A stretch of 64,000 nucleotides of DNA, from the NCBI RefSeq assembly GCF_044647545.1, contig NZ_CP172818.1; one strand, given 5' to 3'. This document shows, one piece after another, positions 19,801-22,800 of the stretch. Position 1 is the stretch's first letter; the number at the start of each line of letters is the position of its first letter. The DNA is from Escherichia coli (lineage in GTDB: Bacteria; Pseudomonadota; Gammaproteobacteria; Enterobacterales; Enterobacteriaceae). Made by a program: the position numbers.

Positions 19801-22800
19801 CATAGACCCCGTAGTACGGCGACGGGCGGTATCCAGTTCGTTGGCGGTAATCGCCATCACCGCGCTTTCTTTGACATCCCAGCCACGTTTCTGCATCTCT
19901 TTATACAGTTCCTGGCCCTGACGTTCGCCAATTTTAGTCGCCGCCATCATCACCAGAGGAACGGTATCCATTGGCTTACCTTTGGCGTTAACAAACTGGT
20001 CATCCACGGCAATGACTTTCATATCGTAGCCACGCGCTTTCGCGACGATGGCAGAGCCGAGTTTGGGGTCCGGAGTACAAATAACGAAACCTTTTGCGCC
20101 ACTGGCTGCCAGGCTGTCGATCGCGTTCAATGTTTTTTCGCCATCCGGCACGGCAATCTTAATAACCTCAAACCCTAAATCCTTCCCGGCTTTATCGGCA
20201 AACTTCCATTCGGTCTGGAACCACGGCTCTTCCGGTTGCTTCACCAGGAAACCGAGCTTCAGGTTCTCCGCCATAGCGGATTGTGACATAACGGCTGCCA
20301 GACCAATGGCTGCCAGGGCTTTAGTAAATTTGTGCATGGTTCTCTCCAGCTTTAGTGTCGTTTTGTGTAGGGCAAAAACGAATGACATTCGTTAAATTAA
20401 TCGGAAAACAAAGCATTACCTTTTAACTAAAAGATAAGTGACTGTGTTGACATAGTTTTAGCGAGAAATTAATTCTCCATAGGAGAGCAATATCACATCG
20501 CAGAATTACAGTGAGAACGTGCATAAATTTAGCGGGAAAAGACATAAGGAAAAGCCAATTTGTCTGACAAATTGTCTAGTGCACAGCAGATTAATCCATA
20601 AGATTAGCCTGGAAATCCTTGTTGTCTTTGGTACCCAGCGGGATGTCTTTTTTTTAACCAGTCAATAGGCCACATTACCTGGCGTTGAGTTTTTGCAATG
20701 GTGTAATAACCGCAACTCAAAGATGTGGAAAAAGCGCGTCATTCATTTCGCCATTAATTATCACCGTGTTCATTAATTAACAGAACACGTATACTGAGAG
20801 CCATATCGCAAAAATGAAAAAACGTTTTAAAAAATCATTGCTTCATCATGAATTCAAATTCACCGATTAATATCAACAAGATACAAAAAGCACTATCATT
20901 AAAATTCATTGCAGTTACATTGATTTCATCAATGAAATGTAAAAATATATAAACTTGATGATTTAAGCATTTTCTTATACCCATTCAGACGTTATTCTTA
21001 TTTCAGATCATCGTCAGAATTGACTCCACGATCACATTTCGGACCGGCAGAAAGGAATTATTCTGCAAACAGTAATTATGGTGTTTTGATTTATCTTGCA
21101 CCTCTCCACTTCTGGATATAAGGATATTAGGTATGGCAACCGCTGGAATGCTTCTCAAACTCAACTCTCAAATGAACCGCGAGTTTTACGCATCCAATCT
21201 CTACCTTCACCTGAGTAACTGGTGTTCTGAACAGAGTCTGAACGGCACCGCCACTTTCCTTCGCGCCCAGGCACAGAGTAACGTGACCCAAATGATGCGC
21301 ATGTTTAACTTTATGAAGAGTGTCGGCGCTACTCCCATCGTTAAAGCCATTGATGTTCCCGGTGAAAAACTGAACTCACTGGAAGAACTTTTCCAAAAAA
21401 CGATGGAAGAATACGAGCAACGTTCAAGCACGCTGGCACAGTTAGCCGATGAAGCTAAAGAACTGAATGATGATTCAACCGTCAATTTCCTGCGCGATCT
21501 GGAAAAAGAACAGCAGCATGATGGCCTGTTGCTGCAAACCATTCTTGATGAAGTGCGCAGTGCGAAACTTGCTGGTATGTGCCCTGTGCAGACCGACCAA
21601 CATGTTCTGAATGTCGTGTCGCATCAGCTGCATTGATCGTCATCGGCGCTAATGCAATTGCGCCGATGAAGTTTTTGAGAAACCGCTGCCTCATCTTTTT
21701 GAAGCAGCGGTTTTTTAATGGGATTCGCCCTGTGGGGTAAACTTGAGTTCAATCAGCGCGATGGCTTTTTGGATTGCCCGCATGGTGACCGGGTCTGCGG
21801 CGGCGGGATGGTGAGTAAAGTCGATATTCTTCAGCTGGCTGGACATTTTTTCGCGAACTTCAACGGGCGCGATTACATCCAGAACGTCGAGAATTTGTTT
21901 GATAACCAACTGGCAAGCAACCACATCAGAAACCAGTTCCTGATCGGCATTCAGCGGCTGGGACATCGTAAACTCCTGATAGCATTTTGAAAGCCGTTAT
22001 AGTAGCGGCTTCACATCTTCAGCGATAGTCACATCCACCGTCACCAGGACACAAAAAAACCTGCCGGAGCAGGTTTTTTGTTATCGGAACATATTGCCTG
22101 GCGGTACGTCTTTGAACGTCTTGCAATAGTTATTGAACATACTTTTCAGGATTTTGCGCAGTTTCATCGCGGCACTCCGACCATTTGTTATACAGGTGTT
22201 ATTGTCTTTGCACTTATAATATGACAACCATCACAAAAATCAATCTTTATGTGATGCAAATCACATAAATACCCCTTTAATGTTATAAAAATGATAATCA
22301 AAAAGCAGCCCCCCATTTCTGACACCTACAGATGGCAAGAAATAGCGCCTGCCAGGCGTCTTTTTCGGCCATTGTCGCAGCGCTGTAACACGTAAAATAG
22401 TGCTTTCTCTTACTCTTCTGGCTGGACCATGAGACTTCTGATTCTGACTCTTTCATTAATAACGCTGGCGGGGTGTACGGTTACTCGCCAGGCCCATGTG
22501 AGCGAAGTTGACGCGGCAACAGGTATTGTACGGTTGGTTTATGACCAGGCTTTTTTGCAGCATGCCCATACCGATCGTTATGTCAGTCGCGGGATCGCCG
22601 ATCGCGCATGCCAGCAGGAAGGCTATACCCACGCGATCCCCTTTGGTCAGCCAGTAGGCAACTGTAGCCTCTTTGCGGGTTCCTTATGTTTGAATACGGA
22701 ATTCACTTTGTCATATCAGTGCCATCATTCCGCCTTCCCTGTCTTTCTCTAAATGTTTTAATCAGCGAGGGGATCTTCGCTGATTAAATAAATAGCGGTA

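What the first reader, a model, noticed from the sequence alone, without database searches (positions are those of the whole stretch)
22052..22167. 28-codon azuC gene with its own terminator, invisible to the ORF track
The minus strand encodes MKLRKILKSMFNNYCKTFKDVPPGNMFR, followed at once by a strong terminator. It is a reminder that this window contains functional very small proteins and sRNAs (azuC, dsrA, yodD, dsrB, yodC) below or near standard ORF thresholds, so other short ORFs in the AT-rich spacers could be missed.
Basis: partly seen in the sequence, partly recalled or inferred. Interest (0 to 1): 0.3.

Follow-up and report, generated by a model that had tools for sequence, protein, structure and literature searches.

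The report
Known AzuCR dual-function RNA gene

Summary
The minus strand at 22167..22081 encodes MKLRKILKSMFNNYCKTFKDVPPGNMFR*. One base after the stop comes a hairpin plus U7 terminator (22079..22053; -17.7 kcal/mol, z -5.5). The peptide matches NCBIfam NF033642 (AzuC equivalog, 75.9 bits against a cutoff of 30). RefSeq annotates azuC here in about 5,418 of 5,426 complete E. coli genomes.

K-12 azuR (b4434, 159 nt) is 100% identical to window 22209..22051. AzuCR is a published dual-function RNA (Raina et al. 2022). AzuC activates GlpD, and the RNA represses cadA and galE by base pairing inside the ORF. FnrS blocks its translation, and CRP, FNR, NarP and PhoP repress its promoter.

My own tests agree. 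Across 59 sequences (the window plus 58 other species loci), third-codon positions carry most of the variation and pN/pS is 0.16-0.23. Two CRP sites, the promoter, the FnrS site, the SD and the terminator are conserved. A -31.9 kcal/mol duplex links the ORF with the cadA start region. No other free-standing sORF in the window combines an SD with a terminator.

Verdict: already known, low interest.

The parts
22051..22209 (-). AzuCR (AzuR/IsrB/IS092) transcript: +1 at 22209 (A), annotated 3' end at 22051. The paper's 164-nt length would end at 22046.
   Evidence: K-12 ncRNA azuR b4434 at 1987843..1988001. The alignment has no indels, so window = K-12 - 1,965,792. 159/159 nt are identical. Length and TSS position 1988001 come from PMC8915982.
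22081..22167 (-). azuC CDS, 28 codons plus TAA; nt +43..+129 of the transcript
   Evidence: Cross-species codon periodicity and pN/pS of 0.16-0.23.
22175..22178 (-). Shine-Dalgarno GGAG, 7 nt upstream of the ATG
   Evidence: Sequence. GGAG is conserved in nearly all 59 sequences (one has GGGG) while the spacer to the ATG varies in length and sequence.
22192..22198 (-). FnrS pairing site CACCUGU, 25-31 nt upstream of the ORF
   Evidence: PMC8915982 reports compensatory mutations. My duplex pairs FnrS nt 1-7 (GCAGGUG) with exactly this site. The motif ATAACACCTGY is near-invariant across genera.
22216..22243 (-). Sigma-70 promoter: -35 TTGATT (22243..22238), 16-nt spacer, -10 TATTAT (22221..22216); TSS 7 nt downstream
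   Evidence: Promoter scan. Both hexamers are conserved across genera.
22220..22235 (-). CRP site II (TGTGATGGTTGTCATA, 1 mismatch), centred at -18.5 and overlapping the -10 region
   Evidence: Pattern search. Half-sites are conserved and the spacer varies. CRP repression is reported in PMC8915982, citing Hemm 2010.
22250..22265 (-). CRP site I (TGTGATTTGCATCACA, perfect consensus), centred at -48.5. It overlaps the published FNR site (window 22247..22266) and PhoP site (22254..22271).
   Evidence: only 4 such sites in 64 kb, two of them here. Conservation. FNR and PhoP coordinates from PMC12266141, converted to window coordinates.
22268..22284 (-). Published NarP repressor site (K-12 1988060..1988076)
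   Evidence: PMC12266141, coordinates converted with the offset. Not tested here.
22096..22129 (-). AzuR segment complementary to cadA -14..+19 (AzuCR nt 81-114, codons 13-24 of azuC)
   Evidence: Local duplex of -31.9 kcal/mol, z -3.7, reached by 1 of 60 shuffles. The paper states that the pairing region lies within the CDS.
22053..22079 (-). Rho-independent terminator: A6-CCUGC-UCCG-GCAGG-U7
   Evidence: The stem is invariant and the loop variable across 59 sequences, with 99.8% of cells paired.
22088..22110 (-). Possible small hairpin inside the ORF (AzuCR nt 100-122) with one covarying pair
   Evidence: V21 third position against codon-25 third position gives AU 26, CG 11, GC 8, UG 2, unpaired 12. 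This is weak evidence resting on a single pair.

Best explanation
The locus is the E. coli azuCR gene. A sigma-70 promoter flanked by two CRP sites drives a 159-164-nt transcript (22209 down to 22051 or 22046) that ends at an intrinsic terminator. The transcript has two jobs. As an mRNA it is translated from GGAG-N7-AUG into the 28-residue cationic amphipathic protein AzuC. [quoted passage not shown] As the sRNA AzuR, a segment inside the ORF base pairs with the cadA and galE mRNAs and represses them. The two activities compete because the ribosome and the targets use the same nucleotides. Upstream control is transcriptional (repression by CRP, FNR, NarP and PhoP) and translational (the FnrS 5' end pairs with CACCUGU in the 5' UTR). 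Shown here by computation: the anatomy, conservation, purifying selection, amphipathicity, the cadA duplex and the FnrS seed. Shown only in the literature: translation, GlpD binding, repression with compensatory mutants, and Hfq/ProQ binding. Inferred: that this strain behaves like K-12, because the transcript is 100% identical.
For: Identity: exact peptide; NF033642 at 75.9 bits against a cutoff of 30; RefSeq azuC and azuR features at the homologous K-12 position; 159/159 nt identical to K-12 azuR; present in 5,418 of 5,426 complete E. coli genomes, at >=99% identity in 3,801. Coding: the ORF is kept at 27-28 codons in all 59 sequences (25 codons from an internal Met in two Pseudocitrobacter loci); entropy at codon positions 1/2/3 is 0.15/0.24/0.79; pN/pS is 0.16-0.23. 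Residues 2-19 have muH 0.60 (top 0.8% of shuffles) and the net charge is +6. Regulation: the promoter hexamers and two CRP sites within 46 nt, when the whole 64 kb has only four, are all conserved across genera with variable spacers. RNA role: a -31.9 kcal/mol duplex pairs AzuCR nt 81-114 with cadA -14..+19 (z -3.7); the FnrS nt 1-7 seed lands on 22198..22192. Terminator. Literature: PMC8915982 and PMC12266141.
Against: My local duplex scan found nothing exceptional for galE (z +1.0), so that target rests on the paper's compensatory mutants alone. The 7-bp FnrS seed is not significant on its own. Synonymous sites in the cadA-pairing codons 13-24 are not suppressed (mean third-position entropy about 0.97, against 0.69 elsewhere). 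Complementarity to E. coli cadA weakens outside Escherichia. The RNA function therefore leaves little evolutionary footprint beyond what the protein imposes. The whole RNA is not significantly more structured than shuffles (z -1.48). Rfam has no family for it. There are small numbering disagreements: the paper gives 164 nt and the CDS at +40..+126, while RefSeq gives 159 nt and the ATG falls at +43 from the stated TSS.
Confidence: 0.95

Rival explanations
1. A plain small-protein mRNA with its own terminator and no RNA-level function.
For: The protein-coding signal dominates. There is no excess synonymous constraint in the pairing region, no significant galE duplex and no strong global fold.
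Against: K-12 RefSeq annotates ncRNA azuR over the same transcript. PMC8915982 reports that a stop-codon mutant still represses cadA and galE, with compensatory base-pair mutants. I reproduced the extensive cadA complementarity.
Confidence: 0.04
2. A non-coding sRNA (the original IS092/IsrB annotation) in which the 28-codon ORF is a chance feature.
For: Short ORFs are common: the window has 453 ATG ORFs of 28-60 codons. Hfq and ProQ bind the RNA.
Against: The ORF length is kept in all 59 sequences, variation is concentrated at third positions, pN/pS is 0.16-0.23, and a conserved GGAG sits at a varying distance from the start codon. An equivalog HMM matches. The literature reports an SPA-tagged product and ribosome profiling signal.
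Confidence: 0.005
3. The real product is the 48-aa TTG-start ORF (22081..22227, minus strand) shown by the mechanical ORF list, or the 48-aa antisense ORF (22078..22224, plus strand).
For: Both appear in the ORF list. The antisense frame stays open for 45-50 codons in 53 of 58 orthologous loci.
Against: The TTG at 22227 lies upstream of the TSS at 22209 and inside the promoter spacer between the -35 and -10 hexamers. The upstream frame closes within 13 codons or fewer in 36 of 58 species, and 5' UTR indels are not multiples of three. The in-register antisense frame closes only at sense TTA, CTA or TCA codons, so its openness is a by-product. Its first codon position coincides with the most variable sense position.
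Confidence: 0.005

Closest known systems
AzuCR (AzuC/AzuR; formerly IsrB, IS092) of E. coli K-12, b4663/b4434
   Same: The 159-nt transcript and the 28-aa protein are identical. The yecR-azuC-yecJ context, promoter, CRP sites, FnrS site and terminator are the same.
   Different: Nothing within the transcript. There are 3 substitutions in the 281 nt aligned: the CRP site I spacer, a position between the -10 and +1, and a position downstream of the terminator. The strain is not K-12, since IS1H upstream of flhDC is absent and fliC differs.
SgrS/SgrT (E. coli) and VcdRP (Vibrio cholerae) dual-function RNAs
   Same: One small transcript both encodes a small protein and base pairs with mRNAs, and both arms act on carbon metabolism (PMC8915982; PMC8672173 abstract).
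   Different: In those RNAs the coding and pairing regions are separate. In AzuCR the pairing region lies inside the ORF, so the two functions compete. There is no sequence relationship.
Spot 42/SpfP
   Same: A CRP-repressed dual-function RNA of E. coli that encodes a very small protein of 15 aa (PMC8916003 abstract).
   Different: SpfP binds CRP itself, whereas AzuC binds GlpD. The sequences are unrelated, and Spot 42 has an Rfam family while AzuCR has none.
Small amphipathic membrane-surface proteins such as SpoVM (26 aa, B. subtilis)
   Same: A short cationic amphipathic helix that associates with the membrane surface (PMC8915982).
   Different: SpoVM did not stimulate dehydrogenase activity in the paper's assay, so the AzuC effect is specific. 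There is no homology.

Membership tests
AzuC protein family (NCBIfam NF033642, equivalog) | HMM score above the curated cutoff | tested here: met
   75.9 bits against a cutoff of 30, E 1.3e-21, covering residues 2-27
AzuC protein family (NCBIfam NF033642, equivalog) | 27-28-aa ORF located between yecR and yecJ, same strand as yecJ | tested here: met
   The same position upstream of yecJ is found in 58 other species loci.
AzuC protein family (NCBIfam NF033642, equivalog) | Selection acting on the protein sequence | tested here: met
   Entropy 0.15/0.24/0.79 by codon position; pN/pS 0.16-0.23
AzuC protein family (NCBIfam NF033642, equivalog) | N-terminal amphipathic helix | tested here: met
   muH 0.60 for residues 2-19, reached by 0.8% of shuffles; net charge +6
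AzuC protein family (NCBIfam NF033642, equivalog) | Membrane localisation, GlpD binding and stimulation of GlpD activity | not testable with these tools
   Reported for the identical K-12 protein in PMC8915982
AzuCR/AzuR (IsrB, IS092) sRNA | Sequence identity with K-12 azuR b4434 over its full length | tested here: met
   159/159 nt
AzuCR/AzuR (IsrB, IS092) sRNA | Base-pairing segment inside the ORF complementary to the cadA translation start | tested here: met
   -31.9 kcal/mol; AzuCR nt 81-114 with cadA -14..+19; z -3.7
AzuCR/AzuR (IsrB, IS092) sRNA | Complementarity to galE | tested here: inconclusive
   The best local duplex is -22.4 kcal/mol, no better than shuffles (z +1.0). The published pairing is supported by compensatory mutants.
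AzuCR/AzuR (IsrB, IS092) sRNA | FnrS target site in the 5' UTR | tested here: met
   7-bp seed at 22198..22192 matching the published position. The motif is conserved. The seed is not statistically significant on its own.
AzuCR/AzuR (IsrB, IS092) sRNA | CRP-repressed promoter | tested here: met
   Sites present at -48.5 and -18.5 and conserved. Repression itself is known only from the literature.
AzuCR/AzuR (IsrB, IS092) sRNA | Binding by Hfq and ProQ | not testable with these tools
   Co-immunoprecipitation reported in PMC8915982
Rho-independent terminator | GC-rich stem-loop followed directly by a U tract | tested here: met
   5 core pairs (4 G-C; CCUGC/GCAGG) plus 6 A-U pairs, a 4-nt loop and U7; -17.7 kcal/mol, z -5.45; conserved. 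The generic scanner missed it.
Rfam sRNA families | Covariance-model match at gathering score | tested here: not met
   No family at gathering score. Sub-threshold matches all sit on the terminator hairpin. AzuCR simply has no Rfam model.

The most novel reading that the evidence does not exclude
The protein arm may be the ancestral, widely conserved function, and riboregulation of cadA a recent Escherichia-specific addition. AzuC is kept under purifying selection in 58 of the 80 best yecJ loci, across Escherichia, several Citrobacter, Enterobacter, Lelliottia, Leclercia, Kosakonia, Silvania and others. From general knowledge, several of these genera are lysine-decarboxylase negative. The cadA-complementary codons vary freely at synonymous sites, and complementarity to E. 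coli cadA is strongest only in Escherichia. Separately, three RNA features are constrained beyond what a plain terminator or coding sequence needs: the terminator stem is invariant, the 5' UTR motif ACCUGC duplicates the terminator's 5' arm, and one pair in a hairpin inside the ORF covaries. These could mark a conserved chaperone (ProQ) or FnrS recognition module.
Probability: 0.3. Interest if true: 0.3.

Novelty: already known. Interest (0 to 1): 0.1.

Why it matters
For the scan, it does not matter as a discovery. The locus is annotated in RefSeq and was characterised experimentally in 2008-2010, 2022 and 2025. Its value is as a calibration point. A real, regulated 28-codon gene is missed by a 60-aa ORF threshold and is mis-started by a first-start-codon rule. 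Two protein search tools refuse it as too short, Rfam has no model for its RNA, and a generic terminator scanner misses its terminator. The same locus is recovered cleanly by combining SD, sORF and terminator, and by codon-position periodicity in syntenic alignments. It also shows that a small 'protein gene' can at the same time be an sRNA.

Tried and rejected
I anchored on the neighbouring yecJ instead.
2. Unrestricted RNA duplexfold of AzuCR against cadA, galE and FnrS zipped the whole molecules together and was uninformative. A 35-nt windowed scan replaced it.
3. galE pairing: nothing above the shuffle background.
4. Global AzuCR structure: the single-sequence fold has z -1.48 and the RNAalifold consensus is weak at -7.5 kcal/mol. 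There is no convincing conserved fold beyond the terminator.
5. The terminator shows no compensatory changes. It is invariant, which neither supports nor contradicts the structure by covariation.
6. Rfam at gathering and at E <= 10 gave no real family.
7. Pfam gave no match for the peptide, and the PDB has no related solved structure.
8. The 48-aa TTG extension and the antisense ORF were rejected.
9. A search for other sORFs with an SD and a terminator in the window found none free-standing.
One search uses the E. coli cadA sequence for all species and is only indicative.

Full report
OBSERVATION. The minus strand of the window from 22167 to 22081 translates to MKLRKILKSMFNNYCKTFKDVPPGNMFR*. 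One base after the TAA lies A6-CCUGC-UCCG-GCAGG-U7 (22079..22053). Folded as RNA, 22085..22045 gives -17.7 kcal/mol, against -5.4 +/- 2.3 for 200 dinucleotide-preserving shuffles (z -5.45, none as stable). The generic terminator scanner did not list it, apparently because the flanking A and U runs extend the stem and consume the U tail. The mechanical ORF list shows the gene only at a 20-aa threshold, and then as a 48-aa ORF starting at a TTG at 22227. So 'invisible to the ORF track' is a fair description.

IS IT MORE THAN CHANCE? A 28-codon ORF is not unusual in itself. The window has 1,888 start-to-stop ORFs of 10-60 codons, 453 of them ATG-initiated with at least 28 codons. Only 95 have an SD-like motif, and only 3 also have a hairpin plus U tract within about 60 nt of the stop. 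One of those three is the in-frame C-terminal part of tcyJ, one lies antisense inside cheA, and the third is azuC.

IDENTITY. The peptide scores 75.9 bits (cutoff 30) against NCBIfam NF033642, 'stress response protein AzuC', an equivalog model. Pfam has nothing. The exact sequence is on record as AzuC of E. coli and Shigella. A 501-nt query around the locus matches 5,419 of 5,426 complete E. coli genomes, with azuC annotated between yecR and yecJ. In K-12 MG1655 the locus carries two overlapping features: CDS azuC (b4663, 1987873..1987959) and ncRNA azuR (b4434, 1987843..1988001). The window aligns to K-12 without indels, with 3 substitutions in 281 nt and none in the transcript. So window = K-12 - 1,965,792, which puts +1 at 22209 and the annotated 3' end at 22051.

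WHAT IS KNOWN. Raina et al. 2022 (PMC8915982) describe this RNA (IS092/IsrB, renamed AzuCR) as a 164-nt dual-function RNA.
- AzuC is an amphipathic, membrane-associated protein that copurifies with GlpD and raises dehydrogenase activity.
- The RNA (AzuR) represses cadA and galE by base pairing, shown with compensatory mutations.
- The pairing region lies inside the ORF, so translation and base pairing interfere with each other.
- FnrS pairs 25-31 nt upstream of the ORF and represses translation.
- CRP represses transcription, and Hfq and ProQ bind the RNA.
A 2025 study (PMC12266141) adds FNR, PhoP and NarP repressor sites at K-12 1988039-58, 1988046-63 and 1988060-76, which correspond to window 22247-66, 22254-71 and 22268-84. 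There is a minor discrepancy. The paper's text places the CDS at +40..+126 of a 164-nt RNA starting at 1988001, whereas from that TSS the ATG is at +43 and RefSeq ends the RNA after 159 nt.

INDEPENDENT TESTS OF THE ANATOMY. The promoter scan finds -35 TTGATT (22243..22238) and -10 TATTAT (22221..22216), 7 nt upstream of the annotated +1. The CRP consensus TGTGA-N6-TCACA occurs only four times in the 64-kb window at one mismatch or fewer. Two of those lie here: a perfect site at 22250..22265 (centre -48.5) and a one-mismatch site at 22220..22235 (centre -18.5, over the -10). GGAG sits 7 nt before the ATG. AzuC residues 2-19 have a helical hydrophobic moment of 0.60, reached by 0.8% of shuffles, and the net charge is +6.

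CROSS-SPECIES EVIDENCE. The peptide is too short for the protein search tools, so I fetched 80 yecJ loci from species-representative genomes.
- Where azuC is present: an AzuC ORF lies upstream of yecJ in 58 loci. These cover Escherichia, Citrobacter amalonaticus, C. sedlakii and relatives, Enterobacter, Lelliottia, Leclercia, Kosakonia, Silvania, Pseudescherichia, Pseudocitrobacter and Huaxiibacter.
- Where it is absent: Salmonella, C. koseri, the C. freundii group and Buttiauxella lack it.
- Evidence for protein coding: length is fixed at 27-28 codons. Entropy at codon positions 1/2/3 is 0.15/0.24/0.79, and pN/pS is 0.16-0.23. The C-terminal TFKDVPPG..MF motif is invariant at the protein level despite many synonymous changes.
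- Conserved noncoding parts: the CRP half-sites (with variable spacers), both promoter hexamers, ATAACACCTGY (the FnrS site), GGAG and the terminator stem (with a variable loop) are conserved across genera.

THE RNA ARM.
- cadA: a 35-nt windowed duplex scan pairs AzuCR nt 81-114 (window 22129..22096, codons 13-24) with cadA -14..+19, across its SD and start codon. The energy is -31.9 kcal/mol (z -3.7; 1 of 60 shuffles as good). This reproduces the paper's 'extensive' cadA pairing and its location inside the ORF.
- FnrS: the best FnrS/5'-UTR duplex is the 7-bp seed of FnrS nt 1-7 with 22198..22192. It matches the published site but is not significant alone.
- galE: the scan gave nothing above background.
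- Evolutionary footprint: the RNA arm leaves little trace. Third positions of codons 13-24 vary freely. Complementarity to E. coli cadA is -28 to -34 kcal/mol in Escherichia but -17 to -28 elsewhere, against shuffles at -12 +/- 3. The caveat is that E. coli cadA was used for all species.
- Structure: the full RNA is not significantly structured (z -1.48) and the alignment consensus fold is weak. One pair in a small intra-ORF hairpin (nt 100-122) covaries, with AU 26, CG 11 and GC 8. That is a hint only.

RIVALS. A purely non-coding sRNA is excluded by the coding signature. A plain mRNA with no RNA function is contradicted by the annotation, the published compensatory mutants and the cadA duplex. 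The 48-aa TTG extension starts upstream of the TSS and is not conserved. The open antisense frame is a by-product of the absence of TTA, CTA and TCA codons, and its first position coincides with the most variable sense position.

dsrA (Rfam 102.5 bits), dsrB, yodD and yodC are all present and intact. The window also holds MotR, AsflhD, 3'ETS-leuZ, YecU (58 aa), SdsN and C0465.

VERDICT. The locus is already known and of low interest as a discovery. It is useful as a positive control for small-gene detection.

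Noticed in passing
window 22192..22199 and 22060..22075: The conserved 5' UTR motif ACCUGY (the FnrS site) copies the terminator's 5' arm ACCUGC, and the FnrS 5' end GCAGGU is identical to the terminator's 3' arm. RNAalifold even pairs the UTR motif with the terminator's 3' arm in its consensus. The single-sequence MFE keeps the terminator hairpin. The meaning is unknown.
   Followed up: partly
window 22088..22110 (-): A small hairpin inside the azuC ORF (AzuCR nt 100-122) has one pair joining two third-codon positions (V21 and codon 25) that switches among A-U, C-G and G-C across genera (AU 26, CG 11, GC 8, UG 2, unpaired 12). It rests on a single pair and is confounded by relatedness.
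   Followed up: partly
window 22053..22079: The terminator stem is completely invariant across about 58 species although nearby synonymous sites are about 50% diverged. It is also symmetric (A6...U7), so it could terminate in both directions. A weak plus-strand promoter-like site lies at 21976..22003.
   Followed up: no
L003:1385-1387 (Escherichia sp. MOD1-EC7003): A clean 687-bp deletion, equivalent to window 22082..22768, removes yecR, the azuC promoter and the whole azuC CDS. It leaves the terminator directly upstream of yecJ.
   Followed up: partly
L017:695-1333 (Salmonella enterica subsp. arizonae): Between yecR and yecJ, where E. coli has azuC, Salmonella carries a 212-aa RpiB/LacAB-type isomerase ORF (PF02502 plus PF12408) and no azuC.
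   Followed up: partly
L008 (E. albertii); L019, L032, L038-L041, L044 (Enterobacter/Lelliottia group): E. albertii has ACAGATAT in place of the FnrS site CACCTGY. The Enterobacter/Lelliottia group has AGTTGT there and uses a GTG start codon for azuC. FnrS control may have been lost in these lineages.
   Followed up: no
window 22209 vs 22206; 22051 vs 22046: Numbering differs between sources. PMC8915982 gives a 164-nt RNA with the CDS at +40..+126 from TSS 1988001. RefSeq azuR is 159 nt, and the ATG is at +43 from that same TSS.
   Followed up: yes
   Followed up: partly
window about 13200..13470; fliC 3' region: The strain is not K-12. The IS1H element upstream of flhDC in MG1655 is absent (only a 27-nt match), and the FliX sRNA from the fliC 3' UTR has no match, consistent with a different fliC allele.
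   Followed up: no
window 13271..13286 (+): This is the only other perfect CRP consensus in the window (TGTGATGCAGATCACA). It lies about 70 bp upstream of the AsflhD end and flhDC leader start, which fits the known CRP site of the flhDC promoter (the assignment is from general knowledge). A one-mismatch site at 59549..59564 lies between dsrA and yedP.
   Followed up: no
window 22051..22209 vs 21715..21966: Within E. coli, AzuCR is >=99% identical to this strain in 3,801 of 5,418 genomes, whereas the adjacent yecJ is >=99% identical in only 198. Either AzuCR is unusually constrained or this strain carries a minority yecJ allele.
   Followed up: partly
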